DNA of 64,000 nucleotides. Source: Octopus vulgaris (taxonomy: Eukaryota). The stretch covers positions 80,042,001 through 80,106,000 of the forward strand of contig OX597825.1 of NCBI GenBank assembly GCA_951406725.2, given 5' to 3'. The position numbers are program-made. The stretch's first letter is position 1; each line of letters opens with the position of its first letter. Positions 31,701-40,700 of this stretch are shown here, one piece after another.

Positions 31701-34700
31701 TTTTGGCTACTAATCCCAAGATTCTGAGTTCAATTCCAGGCAGTGACCTGAATCATCATCATCGTCGTTTAACGTCCGTTCTCCATGCTAGCACGGGTTG
31801 GACGGTTCGACCGGGGTTCTGGGAAGCCAGAAGGCTGCACCAGGCTCCAGTCTAATCTGGCAATGTTTCTACAGCTGGATGCCCTTCCTAACGCCAACCA
31901 CTCCGTGAGTGTAGTGGGTGCTTTTTACGTGCCACCTGCACAGGTGCCAGGCGGGGCTGGCAACGGCCACGGTCAGATTGGTGTATTTTATGTGCCACCG
32001 GCACGGAAGCCAGTCGAGGCGGTGCTGGCATCGGCCACGAGTCGGATAGTGCTTTTTACGTACCACCAGACCAGGGATCCTGGCTGGTTCAATTCGATTT
32101 CGATTTCGATTTCGCTTGCCCCAACATGTCTTCACAAGCAAAGGGGGTTGGCAAGGGTGCCTGTCATACGGTCGCATTGGAGTATTTTACGTGCCAATAA
32201 TAATAATAATAATAGCATTGAAAAATGCCTTAGGAATGAGAACCCAGGTTCAAAATTTCCCCTAAGACACCTGATGAAGGCTGGAAGGTATATCAGCCAA
32301 AGCGTTGTGTTAACAACAAACAAGATGACGAATATCCATCAAATGTAAATAATGTACATAATTCCTCATCTCTTAAATAGAACTATAATTCCATTCTATA
32401 GTAAAAGAGATATCCCAGAACTGACAGCAATTTAGTTTTGGTTTTTGTACATACACTAAAAATATGAGCTGTGTGCATATAAGAGGAATGGCATCTGGCC
32501 ACAGAAGATCTGCCTCAATAAATTCCGTCCGACCCATGCAAGCATGGAAAAGTGGACATTAAAACAATGATGTATGTTTGTGTATATGTGTGTGTGAATG
32601 TATGTTTGTGTGAGTGAGATTCTTATTTCCCAAGTGTTTGCTGGTCTGTAAACAATGGCTCCTTTAAATGAGGCTCAGGGTTTGCTTAGAATTACATTAG
32701 CGTTTCGAGTTTAGGATTGAGGTTGGTGTTAGGGTTTAAGGGGTTGGGTGGTCAGAGATGAAAATCTGTAGCTGTACTGAAATTTCTTTACACGTGCATA
32801 CAGCTCATATTTTTAGTCAATCTGTTCTTACTACATCAAATACGCTAGCACCCATTTTACTAAGTTTTTTATGCAGCAGGCATCCCTGGATGGTACTTGC
32901 ACTTGATCATTCTTTCAAGTTTTTAAGACCCCTTACAAAAAGAAATAAATAAACCTTCGGTCCCTTGATTGTTATCAGATTTTGCAAAGGAAGACAAATA
33001 AGACTGAAACATGGCTAAAGTTATCCCTCTGCTGCTAAACATTCAGACTCGCTATGCAGTTCATAATAAACTGTTAAGATTCCAGGGTTACCTCCCCTAT
33101 GTTCCTTGATCAGAATTATTCATTCCATGATTTGTTTTCATTACTAAAGTAATTAATCTAATTAAAATTAAATCTAGTATGATGTACCCACTTTACTTTA
33201 CGGGTGGGATTTCCACAAACAAACAAGTAAATACTCTGAGGAAATATTGTTATTAACACAGTAAAGTAATAACTGTGATGGTACAGCACTACAAAGTGAC
33301 CGAGGGTTGTTTTAACCATTCCACTTCACTTTCATCAGAAATGGCCCTTGGACTCAGCACAAATTACGTCAACCTCTCCGGTTCAGTAAGATCTACAATG
33401 GTTACGGTCACCATTTCCTCCTCTCTGGTTAATTAATTAAGCTTGATATGCACTCTCGTCATCGTCTTCTTCGTCACAACCATCATCCCCTCCACCACCA
33501 TCATTGCTGCCAGGCACCTCCAACCCCTCCACCACTACCATCATCATTTTTACATATGTTTTTCCATGATTGCAATACATTAGCCAGGTCATCTCCATCT
33601 GCAGTTCTTTTGTCAATATGATGATAATGGTGATGATAGTGATGAAATAAAAAGGCTTGAAACTAATCAATAGATATTGATCTATCGGTATTTTATATTT
33701 TTTCATTGTATTTTTTCCCCTTTTCTTTTTAGTACCATTGAAGCAATGAATGGTAACATCAGCTTCCAAGATGCATTAAGAACTAGGTTAAATATTATTA
33801 AACCAAGTAAAAGTATTCTTAAACAGTTTATAGAAACTCATCCACCAAAATTAACCGATGGAGTCAAGTAAGTTATTTTGTTTGTTTGTTTGATTTGCTT
33901 TTTCTTCTTTTCCATTTTTTTTTTTTTTTGCATTAATTTGTCTTTAATTAATTATCAGACCCCGGTAAGCCAGGAAGCTGCACCAGGCTCCAGTCTGATC
34001 TGGCAATGTTTCTACAGCTGGGTGCCCTTCCTAATGCCAACCACTCCATGAGTGTAGTGGGTGCTATTTACATGCCACCGGCACAGAAGCCAGTCAAGGT
34101 GGCACTGGCATCAGCCATGTTCGGATGGTGCTTTACATTTCTAATTCTAGTAAATTAAACAAATTTGGTAATTAAAAAATGAAAACATTTTTTTCAACCA
34201 GTTTGCCATTAGACATAAAATGATTTTCTTCCAAGCCATTACAATTTTTTTTTAGTAAAGAAATAACATAATATAGCATTTCACTGCATGTTTGACCCCT
34301 TTTGGATTCGCAGAGACCTGATACTTATACTACAGAAAAAAAACATTGATATCTATCTTATTTCGGGAGGATTCCGTACCATCATTGAGACTGTCGCCAA
34401 AGAAGTGAACATTCCAAAAGATCATATATTTGCAAACAGGTTGCAGTTTGATCAAGATGGTAAGTACATTATCCATCCAACATTGGTTTTTTTTTCATGC
34501 TAGTATGGGTTGAATGGGAACTATATCTGTGGTAGGAGGCTCTTCTTGGCACCAACTCTTATCTGTTTTTCATGTAAGGGATTTTTTTTTTATTCTACAT
34601 GTAGTTAGGGTTTGAAACCACCATCTGTAGACTACTGAGGATTTACAAGCTTGTTATCAAATCATAGGCTGGCGCTTCAATATTTCAGTCACTTGCAGAA

Positions 34701-37700: not shown

Positions 37701-40700
37701 CCCTTCCTACAACCAACCATTATTCATAAAGTCAAATATCGGTTAATTTTTTTTTGTTTTCTTTTCTTTTTTCTCTCCTAGGATGCTTTTATTGGTTTTG
37801 GAGGTAATGTTGTGAGGAAGAAAGTGAAGGAAGAAGCAAAATGGTTTGTGATGTCTTTTGCAGAATTAACTAATGTATTTAAAAATGGTTCCAATAATAT
37901 GGAGGTGTAAAAGAATCTGCAATTGACTGACATATTGAAGCCCCAGCCTATGGCTTAATAACAAGATTGTAAATCCTCTGTAGTCTACAGATGGTGGTTT
38001 CAAACCCTAACTACATATCTACATGAGACTATCTGAGAGCTTTTTTAACAAAGTCCAACAAGAAAGAATCTATTCTCGCCAGGAACCCTTGGAATGAAAT
38101 AAAAACCCTGCCACATATCATTAAAAATAAGACTCGAAACACAATGTTATATGTTTGATGTTGTTTTTTGTTTGTCTGTTTTTTAAACTAGAAGCAGAAT
38201 CTCAGAAAAAGTGATTGAAAGGTATTAATCCATTTACCAATGATATCAGTGGCATAAATAGCTACAATAGTCAGTATATTTAGTGGTTAGTTAGCTCCGG
38301 TAAAATGGACACTGCTATTGGCCTTCCCTCCGTTTTAATATCTAACATCAGCATCATCATCATCTACTGTTAATGTGCTAAGGCCAAATGTGTTACACTG
38401 TCAAAGGATTAGTTGAAGGGAGAGTAAGAGAAAATGAGGGAGAGAGAAGTGTTAATGATGTGAGGTAGGAGAAAGTAATAGTTATTACATGATTAAAAAG
38501 TTAGTTAAAAGGTGAGACATAGAGAAAGAGAGCTACAAATACAATGTTTAACAGAGGAATGATGTTCTGGTAGTGAGGTTAAAAGAATGCAGATAGAGAG
38601 AGGAGGGCAGTTATATTAAAAGGGAGAAGCAAATAATGTGAAAGATGCCATGTCAGCTGATGCATTATGCTGTCACATACTCTTTACTCTTTTACTTGTT
38701 TCAATCATTTGACTGCGGCCATGCTGGAGCACCGCCTTTAGTCGAGCAACTCGACCCCGGGACTTATTCTTTGTAAGCCCAGTACTTATTCTATCGGTCT
38801 CTTTTGCTGAACCGCTAAGTGACGGGGACGTAAACACACCAGCATCGGTTGTCAAGCAATGCTAGGGGGACAAACACATACATACATATACATATAAACG
38901 ACAGGCTTCTTTCAGTTTCCGTCTACCAAGTCCACTCACAAGGCATTGGTCGGCCCGGGGCTATAGCAGAAGACACTTGCCCAAGATGCCACGCTGTGGG
39001 ACTGAACCCGGAACCATGTGGTTGGTTAGCAAGCTACTTACCACACAGCCACTCCTGCGCCATGGTTAAAAAGTTTGTTGAAGTATGTGGCAGAGAGGGA
39101 GAGAAGTGTAAAGGGCTCAGCAGAGGGAAATTTTAAACATCATATATTATTGTGACTAACAGAATAACATTTTAATACTCAGTTTTTTACATCTTCTATC
39201 TGTCAGTCTATTTATCTATCCACATTGACAATTACATCGATGGGTGGACAGTAGAAAGAAAGCTTATATTAGGAGGTTTAATGATAAACTTATCATAGAT
39301 AAGAAAACAGATTTTCCAATGAAAGTGTAATATGTTAGCGAAGTAGCTACGGATGTTGTTTGTTTTTAATTTTAAAACAGTACACCTCCACCACCACGCA
39401 ACTGACACTTTTAAACAGTCTTAATTATGGAACAATAACGAAGAAGACACAATGTATTTAACATAATGAAAAGGTTTTAGAAAGTTCTATGAATTTATGC
39501 ATCAAAAATAGAAACCTCAACATTTATGAAACGTGGTGTTTCCATGGATCTCATATGCATAGGTGCAGGAGTGGCTGTGTGGTAAGTAGCTTGCTTACCA
39601 ACCACATGGTTCCAGGTTCAGTTACATGGCACCTTGGGCAAGTGTCTTCTACTATAGCCTCGGGCCGACCAAAGCCTTGTGAGTGGATTTGGTTGATGGA
39701 AACTGAAAGAAGCCTGTTGTATATATGTGTGTCTGTATTTGTCCCCCCATCATCGCTTGACAACTGATGCTGGTGTGTTTATATCCCTGTAACTTAGCAG
39801 TTCAGCAAAAGAGACCGATAGAATAAGTACTAGGCTTACAAAGTATAAGCCCTGAGGTCGATTTGCTTGACTAAAGGCAGTGCTCCAGCATGGCCACAGT
39901 CAAATGACTGAAACAAGTAAAAGAGTATGTATGAAAACATTTTCACTACATTCAAAACAAACTCCCTAGAAATCTTTTATCTTTTACTTGTTTCAGTCAT
40001 TAGACTGCGGCTATGCTGGGGCAGCAATGCCTTGAAGAATGGATTAACTCCAGTATTTATTTTTTTGTTTTTTAAGCTTGGTTCTTATTCAATTGATCTG
40101 TTTTAACAAACCACAAAATTACAAGGATATAAACAGAATTTCTACAGCTGGTGCCAACCACTCCAAGAGTGTAGTGGGTGCTTTTACAGGCCACCAGCAC
40201 GAGGGCCAGTCAGGCGGTACTGGCAACGTCCACGTTGAAATAGTGCTTTTTATGTGCCACCTGCACAGGAGCCAGTCCAGCGGCACTGGCAACGACCTTG
40301 CTCGAATGTTTTTTTTACATGCCACCAGCACAAATGCCAGTAAGGCGACGCGGATAACGATCACACTCGGATGGTGTGTTTTACATGTCACCGGCACAGT
40401 GGCCAGCTTGTTGCTCTTGTCTATAAACATAATGCTTTTTGTATCCCGAAAACTGAGGCCATTACTTTCCCTGCAGATAAAAATTAGCTTTGCCTTCTTT
40501 GGAGCAGGTGAGGAGGGATGGTGCCACTGTATGGATTGTCTCTTTGCCTGTGGCTCAAAGTGATGAATCCAACACTCATCCTGGCTTGGAAACATTCACG
40601 GAAACCATCTGGATCTGCCTTGACCAGTGTCAGATTTTCTCTAATGTGATGAACCTGATGCACTTTTGGTCAGATGCCAGAAGACATAGCATCCACCGAG

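What the first reader, a model, noticed from the sequence alone, without database searches (positions are those of the whole stretch)
34599..38016. PSPH intron carries an antisense copy of its own last exon and 3'UTR plus a sense decoy: competing long dsRNA in one pre-mRNA
Seen: 34599-34812 (coding intron 3) is the reverse complement of 37806-38016 (C-terminal codons, stop and about 105 nt of 3'UTR), roughly 90% identical by eye. A second, sense copy at 35571-35781 pairs with 34703-34913 across a spacer of about 660 nt. The antisense arm therefore has two partners that overlap over 34703-34812. Pairing with the intronic copy gives an intron-internal hairpin. Pairing with the true terminal exon loops out exon 4 (149 nt, catalytic motifs III and IV) and makes the end of the CDS and the UTR double-stranded. 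Established: ADAR editing needs an editing-complementary sequence, often intronic, and coleoid cephalopods recode mRNA extensively; competing pairings also control exon choice in other genes. Inference: this is a self-derived, newly formed editing-complementary sequence or structural switch, or a hairpin siRNA source that targets PSPH.
Basis: partly seen in the sequence, partly recalled or inferred. Interest (0 to 1): 0.85.

Follow-up and report, generated by a model that had tools for sequence, protein, structure and literature searches.

The report
Exon-derived inverted repeat inside PSPH intron
An intron of a phosphoserine phosphatase gene holds a backwards copy of the gene's own last exon and a later forwards copy of part of it, so the unspliced RNA could form long double-stranded stretches, but whether that does anything is untested.

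Summary
34599-34811 is the reverse complement of 37806-38016 (213 nt, 92.5%). 34703-34916 pairs with 35568-35781 (214 nt, 96.7%, 651-nt spacer). The exons match human PSPH when searched one at a time.

New points:
- Only half of the sense "decoy" comes from the exon. The other 105 nt (X) has no third copy in the window.
- The sense arm is an insertion into a SINE head.
- The sense arm really spans 35547-35781. It preserves the empty site of a SINE that later split the left arm at 34916/34917.

The inferred order is: antisense insertion, then inverted copy, then SINE insertion. This argues against mis-assembly, a TE with long terminal repeats, and a retrocopy.

Folding 34460-38125 predicts a split. 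The decoy takes X and the coding part (100 + 88 pairs). The real 3'UTR pairs with 34599-34702 (95 pairs). Only 16 pairs reach the real coding end.

Best reading: two local inverted templated duplications, probably neutral, made an ordinary long intronic dsRNA that ADAR would probably hyper-edit. Editing, small RNAs, splicing effects and conservation could not be tested here. Interest is moderate.

The parts
31374..31513 (+). PSPH coding exon 1, from the ATG. Carries the DVDST motif.
   Evidence: Motif scan of the six-frame translation found one hit. Acceptor, ATG and GT donor were read. Weak HAD match to profile positions 2-43, below the cut-off.
33733..33867 (+). PSPH coding exon 2
   Evidence: Open frame with AG/GT borders. 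The phase fits exons 1 and 3. No Pfam hit on its own.
34314..34459 (+). PSPH coding exon 3. It ends in phase 1.
   Evidence: Sub-threshold HAD/Hydrolase match to profile positions 98-137.
34599..34811 (-). Antisense copy of exon 5 and 3'UTR (37806-38016). 34599-34702 is complementary to the UTR and 34703-34811 to the last 105 nt of CDS.
   Evidence: 213 columns, 92.5%, E 1e-86. Differences from the donor are 14 substitutions plus a 2-nt indel.
34812..34916 (.). X': 105 nt of unique intron sequence, part of the left arm. Not derived from the exon.
   Evidence: Its only other copy in the window is 35568-35672, at 95.2%.
34917..35186 (+). 5'-truncated SINE ('SINE-A', (GAT)n tail) inserted into the left arm after the inverted duplication.
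   Evidence: Matches at least 8 other copies in the window at 77-93%. Other copies extend further 5'. The right arm shows the uninterrupted site.
35187..35208 (+). (CA)n-TCATGT flank. It continues the left arm on the far side of SINE-A.
   Evidence: Reverse complement of 35547-35568: 22 nt, 95.5%. Alignment.
35505..35546 (-). First half of a tRNA-like SINE head ('SINE-B') that the sense arm interrupts.
   Evidence: 35510-35546 matches 8 other SINE-B copies at 86-94%. Alignment with 5 of them.
35547..35781 (+). Sense arm ('decoy'). 35547-35567 is the reverse complement of the CA flank, 35568-35672 is X, and 35673-35781 is the copy of exon 5 codons ending in TAG.
   Evidence: 214 nt at 96.7% to 34703-34916, and 107 nt at 95.3% to 37806-37912. 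Seven mismatches are listed; by my reading 3 of them remain G-U pairs in RNA.
35774..35860 (-). Second half of the interrupted SINE-B head.
   Evidence: 35774-35816 matches the SINE-B positions that lie 15-17 nt after the first half in 7 other copies.
35968..36116 (+). PSPH coding exon 4 (149 nt) with the SGGKG and GDGATD motifs.
   Evidence: phmmer against PDB: human PSPH residues 143-190, E 1.7e-15.
37782..37910 (+). PSPH coding exon 5, including the TAA stop.
   Evidence: phmmer against PDB: human PSPH residues 191-221, E 7e-9.
37806..38016 (+). Donor segment that was copied: the last 102 coding nt, the stop and 106 nt of 3'UTR.
38098..38103 (+). AATAAA, the candidate polyadenylation signal. 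It lies about 80 nt beyond the end of the copied segment.
   Evidence: Read directly. Its use is inferred.

Best explanation
Intron 3 of a phosphoserine phosphatase gene was remodelled by two successive local, inverted, templated duplications. These are most simply replication template switches or break repair copying from a nearby template.

Order of events:
1. A 211-213-nt piece of the last exon and 3'UTR (37806-38016) was copied in reverse orientation into intron 3, beside native sequence X'.
2. About 236 nt spanning that junction (34703-34916 plus the CA flank) was copied, again inverted, into a SINE head about 340 nt downstream. About 17 nt of the SINE was lost.
3. A SINE then landed in the left arm.

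The consequence is structural. The unspliced RNA can form a hairpin of about 214-236 bp with nearly perfect pairing inside intron 3. The remaining 104 nt of the antisense copy can also pair with the real 3'UTR.

I judge that this behaves like any long intronic inverted repeat: a substrate for promiscuous ADAR hyper-editing that is removed with the intron, with no evolved regulatory role. The origin and order of events are shown by the sequence. dsRNA formation is predicted. Editing and neutrality are inferred.
For: Copies and identities.

Direction of copying:
- Exon 5 aligns with human PSPH 191-221, so it is ancestral.
- Both intronic copies share 4 differences from the exon (37811, 37812, 37870, 37875). 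Each has 1 private difference in the coding part.

The sense arm is the secondary copy:
- It is bounded on both sides by adjacent halves of one SINE head.
- The left arm continues into the UTR copy on one side and into unique spacer on the other.

The SINE-A insertion came later: the right arm joins X directly to the (CA)n-TCATGT flank, which in the left arm lies beyond the 270-nt SINE.

X is not a repeat family in this window. It has 2 copies only.

Folding:
- Hairpin region alone (34690-35795): -536 kcal/mol.
- 34460-38125: -1302.4 kcal/mol, with the arm split between two partners.
- Blocking the antisense arm costs 376 kcal/mol.

No sign of constraint:
- 4 of the 5 differences between the two X copies change the in-frame residue.
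- 6 transitions against 8 transversions between donor and antisense copy. A-to-G accounts for 1 of the 14 substitutions.

Context from passages read: Octopus bimaculoides shows exceptionally abundant hyper-editing and many loci able to form long dsRNA (PMC5625713).
Against: - Nothing here measures RNA, so a function cannot be excluded.
- The partition is tidy: the decoy covers exactly the coding part plus X and leaves exactly the UTR part free. That is what a designed shield would look like, although it also follows trivially from where the second copy happened to start.
- The arms are 96.7% identical even though a SINE has had time to insert. This could mean recent events, gene conversion between the arms, or selection for pairing.
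- Microhomology was judged only at the right junction of the sense arm (about 4-6 nt by eye, from the alignments). The left junctions were not scored for it, so the repair mechanism is inferred rather than shown.
- Whether X' is native intron or arrived with the first insertion cannot be decided without an orthologue.
Confidence: 0.62

Rival explanations
1. Newly born editing-complementary sequence or structural switch. The intronic antisense arm pairs with the terminal exon or UTR before intron 3 is removed and recruits ADAR there. The decoy sets how much of the exon is exposed.
For: - 213 nt of 92.5% complementarity on the same strand of one gene.
- The MFE fold keeps 95 pairs between 34599-34702 and the real 3'UTR and 16 with the coding end.
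- With the decoy blocked, 200 pairs form with the terminal segment.
- Intronic complementary sequences that support editing are established (review passages read, PMC5705066).
Against: - No editing data were available.
- The arm lies in an upstream intron 3 kb away. It must survive until exon 5 is transcribed.
- The decoy is transcribed first and is thermodynamically preferred for the coding part: -174.9 against -159.6 kcal/mol.
- There is no A/G bias among the differences.
- PSPH is a housekeeping enzyme. No paper in the library links it to cephalopod editing, though supplementary site tables could not be opened.
Confidence: 0.12
2. Hairpin source of small interfering RNAs against PSPH itself, like loci born by inverted duplication of their target gene.
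For: - The hairpin has 214 bp with 7 mismatches, 3 of which are G-U by my reading.
- It contains 109 nt copied from the PSPH coding end, with perfect runs to the real mRNA of 57 nt (37813-37869) and 29 nt (37876-37904), derived from the difference list.
- The idea of inverted duplication of target sequences is in print. I saw Allen et al. 2004 only as a citation in the reference list of PMC10317233.
Against: - The hairpin is intronic and has no promoter of its own that I could show.
- No small-RNA data were available.
- Self-silencing of an essential serine-synthesis enzyme has no obvious benefit.
- Heavy ADAR editing would be expected to oppose Dicer processing (recalled).
Confidence: 0.05
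3. A foldback or long-TIR DNA transposon that captured an exon fragment. The two arms would be its terminal inverted repeats.
For: - The arms are equal in length with a 651-nt spacer.
- Another non-SINE inverted repeat with a similar spacer exists at 20842-20953 / 21569-21681: 113 nt, 90%, 616-nt spacer.
Against: - The left arm continues without a break into 104 more nt of the same exon/UTR copy, so the arm end is not an element end.
- X has no other copy in 64 kb.
- I saw no target-site duplication when reading the flanks.
- The right arm replaces about 17 nt of a SINE rather than duplicating a target.
Confidence: 0.05
4. Assembly artefact, such as a chimeric read or a collapsed or misjoined repeat.
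For: Inverted duplications can be produced by chimeric long reads (recalled). The window alone gives no read support.
Against: - The copies differ by 3.3% and 7.5% rather than being identical.
- One arm carries a SINE insertion while the other keeps the empty site.
- The right arm has clean junctions inside a SINE head.
These are marks of evolutionary history, not of a misjoin.
Confidence: 0.03
5. 5'-truncated retrocopy of PSPH mRNA inserted antisense by LINE machinery.
For: In the copy's own orientation its end is followed, after 7 nt, by a run of ten A (34582-34591 on the + strand as T).
Against: - The copy ends at 38016, about 80 nt before the only AATAAA (38098-38103).
- There is no signal hexamer just upstream of its end.
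- Nothing upstream of 37806 in the copy matches exon 4 or the first 24 nt of exon 5.
- No target-site duplication was seen.
- T-runs are common in these introns (families D2 and D4).
Confidence: 0.05

Closest known systems
Inverted SINE/Alu pairs in introns, the bulk substrates of ADAR hyper-editing
   Same: Two nearby reverse-complementary stretches of a few hundred nt in one pre-mRNA form long, nearly perfect dsRNA. The same window holds such pairs, for example 36494-36898 / 38675-39077: 407 nt, 89.9%. Octopus is reported as very rich in this kind of editing (PMC5625713, passages read).
   Different: The arms here are not a repeat family. They have 2-3 copies in 64 kb, and the third copy is the gene's own exon. 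One arm can therefore also pair with mature-mRNA sequence.
Intronic editing-complementary sequences of site-selective ADAR targets (GluA2 Q/R site; insect Syt1)
   Same: Intron sequence complementary to an exon of the same transcript (concept from PMC5705066, passages read; GluA2 details recalled).
   Different: Known ECS duplexes are short and imperfect, conserved, and tied to a demonstrated edited site. This one is 213 nt at 92.5% and of recent origin. It lies in an upstream intron, has a stronger internal competitor, and has no editing evidence.
[quoted passage not shown]
   Same: Inverted duplication that includes sequence of the gene it could target (PMC10317233, abstract and passages read; Allen et al. 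2004 seen only in its reference list).
   Different: Those are separate transcription units with shown Dicer products. This hairpin sits inside an intron of its own target, and no small RNAs are shown.
Hairpins created by template switching during DNA replication
   Same: A reverse-complement copy of nearby sequence is created in one mutational step and gives a ready-made RNA stem (PMC8794818 and PMC10710096, search listing and start of abstracts only).
   Different: As I recall them, the described events are short (tens of nt) and very local. Here the copies are 213-236 nt and were placed 0.34 and 3.0 kb from their templates, closer to MMBIR-type templated insertions (PMC8421209, listing and start of abstract only).
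Competing RNA pairings that choose exons (Dscam docking/selector type)
   Same: One RNA site has mutually exclusive partners.
   Different: There is no cluster of alternative exons. The partners do not flank alternative splice sites, and there is no conservation evidence. The comparison rests on recall.

Membership tests
ADAR editing-complementary sequence (ECS) | Complementary to an exon region of the same pre-mRNA | tested here: met
   213 columns, 92.5%, same transcription unit under the exon model.
ADAR editing-complementary sequence (ECS) | A-to-I editing occurs in the paired exon and depends on the intronic element | not testable with these tools
   No RNA-seq or matched DNA was available. 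Supplements of editome papers were closed.
ADAR editing-complementary sequence (ECS) | Conserved across related species | not testable with these tools
   No eukaryotic genome collection was on hand.
Inverted-repeat TE pair (Alu-like hyper-editing substrate) | Long intramolecular duplex within a few kb | tested here: met
   214 bp, 96.7%, 651-nt loop. The fold of 34690-35795 gives -536 kcal/mol.
Inverted-repeat TE pair (Alu-like hyper-editing substrate) | Arms are copies of a dispersed repeat family | tested here: not met
   X has 2 copies. The exon part has 3 copies including the exon itself, and none elsewhere in 64 kb.
hpRNA / inverted duplication of a target gene | Hairpin arms homologous to a protein-coding target | tested here: met
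   109 nt at 95% to the PSPH coding end. The longest perfect run is 57 nt.
hpRNA / inverted duplication of a target gene | Produces Dicer-dependent 21-22-nt RNAs | not testable with these tools
   No small-RNA data.
Competing-pairing splicing switch (docking/selector) | Mutually exclusive pairings for one site | tested here: met
   Overlap over 34703-34811. Blocking either partner shifts 200 or 207 pairs to the other.
Competing-pairing splicing switch (docking/selector) | Partners sit beside alternative exons so that pairing selects one | tested here: not met
   The five coding exons are single-copy and add up to one frame of 699 nt. No duplicated alternative exons were seen. The decoy is not next to a known exon.
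Templated insertion by template switch / MMBIR-like repair | Inserted DNA is a copy, here inverted, of nearby sequence | tested here: met
   Both events. Templates lie 3.0 kb and about 0.34 kb away.
Templated insertion by template switch / MMBIR-like repair | Insertion into pre-existing sequence without target-site duplication, often with a small deletion | tested here: met
   The sense arm replaces about 17 nt in the middle of a SINE head.
Templated insertion by template switch / MMBIR-like repair | Microhomology at junctions | tested here: inconclusive
   About 4-6 nt (AGAA..A) are shared at the right junction of the sense arm, by eye from the alignments. The other junctions were not scored for it.
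Processed retrocopy | Spans exon-exon junctions and ends at the mRNA poly(A) site with a tail and target-site duplication | tested here: not met
   The copy starts 24 nt inside exon 5 next to unrelated X. It ends about 80 nt before AATAAA, and no duplication was seen.
Phosphoserine phosphatase (HAD superfamily), the host gene | Sequence match to solved PSPH and the HAD motif order | tested here: met
   Exon 4 matches human PSPH 143-190 (E 1.7e-15) and exon 5 matches 191-221 (E 7e-9). DVDST is in exon 1. Exon-wise Pfam hits are in HAD order but below the cut-offs. The joined CDS was not searched.

The most novel reading that the evidence does not exclude
The two-step duplication has produced a working, self-derived ADAR or dsRNA module. 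The intronic antisense arm tethers the PSPH 3'UTR (37911-38016) co-transcriptionally. The later decoy shields the last 35 codons from becoming double-stranded. Editing or nuclear retention is therefore directed to the UTR and tuned by the rate of intron-3 removal. This would be a caught-in-the-act birth of an editing-complementary sequence from the target exon itself.

A sub-variant: the sense arm serves as an in-phase alternative or poison terminal exon. AG at 35600-35601 is in phase with exon 3, and the frame stays open to TAG at 35778-35780.
Probability: 0.1. Interest if true: 0.75.

Novelty: new member of a known kind. Interest (0 to 1): 0.4.

Why it matters
How intronic editing-complementary sequences and target-derived hairpins first arise is mostly inferred from old, decayed examples. 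Here the donor exon, the antisense copy, a second-generation copy and a dated SINE insertion are all still legible in 3.5 kb. The locus is therefore a clean natural test. Public RNA-seq and small-RNA data for the species could show at once whether a newborn exon-derived duplex is edited, diced or ignored. They could also show whether an internal competitor protects coding sequence. If nothing happens to the RNA, the locus is simply a well-resolved example of local inverted templated duplication in a SINE-rich intron.

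Tried and rejected
- TE with long terminal repeats: rejected. The left arm runs on into the UTR copy and X is not repeated.
- Retrocopy: rejected on the missing poly(A) site and missing exon junction.
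- Mis-assembly: judged unlikely from the divergence between copies and the SINE empty site.
- X as a coding remnant. X is open in frame with the exon part in both copies. A 35-codon open stretch has roughly a 9% chance at this base composition (my estimate, not a call), 4 of 5 differences are non-synonymous, and Pfam finds nothing credible in either 69-residue reading (best E 0.22).
- X as a diverged copy of the start of exon 5 or the end of exon 4: no match by blastn with word size 9. The 16-of-24 resemblance that MAFFT placed is not convincing.
- Known RNA families: Rfam at gathering thresholds found 1 match in the whole window, a tRNA at 59885-59956, and none in 33400-39200.
- A-to-G hardwiring: 1 of the 14 substitutions between donor and antisense copy.
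- Literature:
  - 'phosphoserine phosphatase' + octopus: 0 papers.
  - PSPH + cephalopod: 3 papers, all palaeontology.
  - 'editing complementary sequence' + 'inverted duplication': 0 papers.

Full report
**Observation.** The repeat finder reports four relations:
- Inverted arms 34703-34916 / 35568-35781: 214 nt, 97%, 651 nt apart.
- Inverted arms 34702-34811 / 37806-37915: 110 nt, 95%.
- Inverted arms 34599-34706 / 37909-38016: 108 nt, 91%.
- Direct pair 35673-35779 / 37806-37912: 107 nt, 95%.

blastn of the window against itself joins the two long-range pieces into one 213-column match at 92.5% (E 1e-86). It gives 96.7% over 214 nt (E 4e-100) for the intronic pair. The window holds no N.

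For a base rate I counted reverse-strand self-matches at E <= 1e-10. Of 321, only 6 are >=100 nt, >=85% identical and within 5 kb. Two of the 6 are this finding, and they are the only 2 at >=200 nt and >=90%.

**Host gene.** Reading the sequence and its frames gives five coding exons on the + strand:

| Exon | Coordinates |
|---|---|
| 1 | 31374-31513 |
| 2 | 33733-33867 |
| 3 | 34314-34459 |
| 4 | 35968-36116 |
| 5 | 37782-37910 |

All have AG/GT borders and consistent phases, and they total 699 nt. I searched the exons one at a time and did not make or search the joined model.
- Exon 4 matches human phosphoserine phosphatase residues 143-190 (E 1.7e-15) and carries SGGKG and GDGATD.
- Exon 5 matches residues 191-221 (E 7e-9).
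- By my count of the printed alignments, identity is about 65% for exon 4 and 61% for exon 5.
- Exon-wise Pfam hits fall in HAD order but below the cut-offs.

No call identified the species.

**What the copies are made of.** The donor segment starts 24 nt inside exon 5 and ends 106 nt into the 3'UTR. The antisense copy (34599-34811) covers all of it.

The sense copy is only half exon-derived. 35673-35781 copies the coding end. 35568-35672 (X) is unrelated sequence whose only other copy in the window is 34812-34916, directly beside the antisense copy.

Both intronic copies share four differences from the exon and have one private difference each in the coding part. They are therefore sisters, and the exon is the outgroup and donor.

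**Order of events.**
- The sense arm is flanked on both sides by two halves of one tRNA-like SINE head. 35510-35546 and 35774-35816 match positions that lie 15-17 nt apart in seven other copies in the window. An alignment with five of them shows the arm replacing about 17 nt. The sense arm is thus an insertion into a pre-existing SINE.
- The left end of the sense arm extends 22 nt further than reported. 35547-35568 is the reverse complement of 35187-35208, the (CA)n-TCATGT sequence that follows the (GAT)n tail of another SINE at 34917-35186 (95.5%; alignment).
- In the right arm X is joined directly to this flank. In the left arm the 270-nt, 5'-truncated SINE lies between them. The right arm therefore preserves the empty site, and the SINE entered the left arm after the inverted duplication.
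- This explains why the arm boundary at 34916/34917 coincides with a SINE boundary.

The sequence of events is: antisense insertion of the exon/UTR piece; inverted copying of about 236 nt across its junction into a SINE about 340 nt downstream; then SINE insertion.

These historical marks, and the 3.3% and 7.5% divergences, argue against mis-assembly. A transposon with long terminal repeats is unlikely because the left arm continues into the UTR copy and X is not repeated. A retrocopy is unlikely for two reasons:
- The copy ends about 80 nt before the only AATAAA (38098-38103).
- It joins no upstream exon.

A ten-A run does sit 7 nt beyond its end.

I attribute both events to template switching or break repair from a nearby template. 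Microhomology was judged only at the right junction of the sense arm (about 4-6 nt by eye), so this mechanism is an inference. Such mechanisms are described in papers of which I saw only the listing and the start of the abstract (PMC8421209; PMC8794818 and PMC10710096).

**Predicted RNA behaviour.**

| Pairing or constraint | Result |
|---|---|
| Antisense arm with sense copy | -355.3 kcal/mol |
| Antisense arm with terminal segment | -318.3 kcal/mol |
| Contested coding part, decoy | -174.9 kcal/mol |
| Contested coding part, real exon | -159.6 kcal/mol |
| Hairpin region alone (34690-35795) | -536.3 kcal/mol, continuous stem |
| 34460-38125, unconstrained | -1302.4 kcal/mol |
| Decoy blocked | costs 156.5 kcal/mol; 200 pairs to terminal segment |
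| Terminal segment blocked | costs 141.9 kcal/mol; 207 hairpin pairs remain |
| Antisense arm blocked | costs 376 kcal/mol |

In the unconstrained fold of 34460-38125 the arm is shared out as follows:
- X' with X: 100 pairs.
- Antisense coding part with the decoy: 88 pairs.
- Antisense coding part with the real coding end: 16 pairs.
- Antisense UTR part with the real 3'UTR: 95 pairs.

The expected outcome is a hairpin plus a UTR tether, not a double-stranded coding end. These are equilibrium predictions. The decoy is also transcribed before the real exon, which favours it further (inference).

**Function.** I found nothing that shows function.
- The two X copies differ at 5 sites, and 4 of them change the in-frame residue.
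- Donor and antisense copy differ by 6 transitions and 8 transversions, with one A-to-G.
- Rfam finds no known RNA family in the region.
- The library holds no paper linking PSPH to cephalopod editing and none joining 'editing complementary sequence' with 'inverted duplication'. Supplementary editing-site tables, which might list this gene, could not be opened.
- Passages read in PMC5625713 say octopus has exceptionally frequent hyper-editing and many loci able to form long dsRNA. Passages in PMC5705066 describe ECS elements and conservation around cephalopod sites.

The most likely fate of this hairpin is therefore promiscuous hyper-editing and removal with the intron, as for inverted SINE pairs. 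One such pair, 36494-36898 / 38675-39077 (407 nt, 89.9%), brackets exon 5 in the same window.

**Verdict.** The structure is real. The functional reading is open and, on present evidence, less likely than neutrality.

It is a new member of a known kind: a long intronic inverted repeat made by local inverted duplication. Its unusual feature is that one arm derives from the gene's own terminal exon.

Noticed in passing
36494-36898 and 38675-39077: An inverted pair of the ~380-nt tRNA-like SINE ('SINE-B'), 407 columns at 89.9%, brackets the last PSPH exon. One copy lies in intron 4 and the other about 770 nt past the stop. If the transcript reads that far, this is a second long duplex looping out exon 5.
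   Followed up: partly
20842-20953 and 21569-21681: Another inverted repeat whose arms are not repeated elsewhere in the window: 113 nt, 90%, 616-nt spacer containing a SINE at about 21196-21443. I saw no target-site duplication when reading the flanks. It may be a second local inverted duplication or a foldback element.
   Followed up: partly
35568-35780 (+) and 34706-34916 (-): X is open in frame with the copied PSPH codons in both copies (69 residues to the stop). AG at 35600-35601, behind a pyrimidine-rich run, would splice in phase with exon 3. This could make the sense arm a truncating alternative terminal or poison exon. The chance of such an open stretch is roughly 9% by my estimate.
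   Followed up: partly
34582-34598: In the orientation of the antisense copy, its end is followed by 7 unmatched nt and ten A. The junction forms the palindrome CTACATGTAG (34594-34603). This could be a trace of the insertion mechanism or chance.
   Followed up: no
44149-55023, minus strand: A convergent neighbour gene resembling GPI ethanolamine-phosphate transferase (PIGG/PIGO). 44149-44640 hits PF19316 (E 1e-6). 54154-55023 hits PF01663 below its cut-off (E 2e-4). 45501-47516 is a 672-residue open stretch with many hydrophobic segments and no Pfam hit.
   Followed up: partly
49512-50393 (+): An open frame of 294 residues with Tc1/mariner-type transposase domains: HTH_Tnp_Tc3_2 (E 1e-16) and DDE_3 (E 3.5e-13). 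It probably lies in an intron of the neighbour gene.
   Followed up: no
59885-59956 (+): A tRNA-Asp (GTC) call by both Rfam (37 bits) and ARAGORN. It is either a real tRNA gene or a SINE head; a SINE tail match ends at 59879.
   Followed up: no
7834-7995 and 8669-8830: An inverted pair of a third tRNA-like SINE family: 162 nt, 94.4%, 674-nt spacer. The family has many copies across the window.
   Followed up: no
34917-35014: The SINE in the left arm carries an internal tandem sub-repeat of about 64 nt (34917-34950 and 34981-35014, 79%). Other copies of the family carry more units at the 5' end.
   Followed up: no
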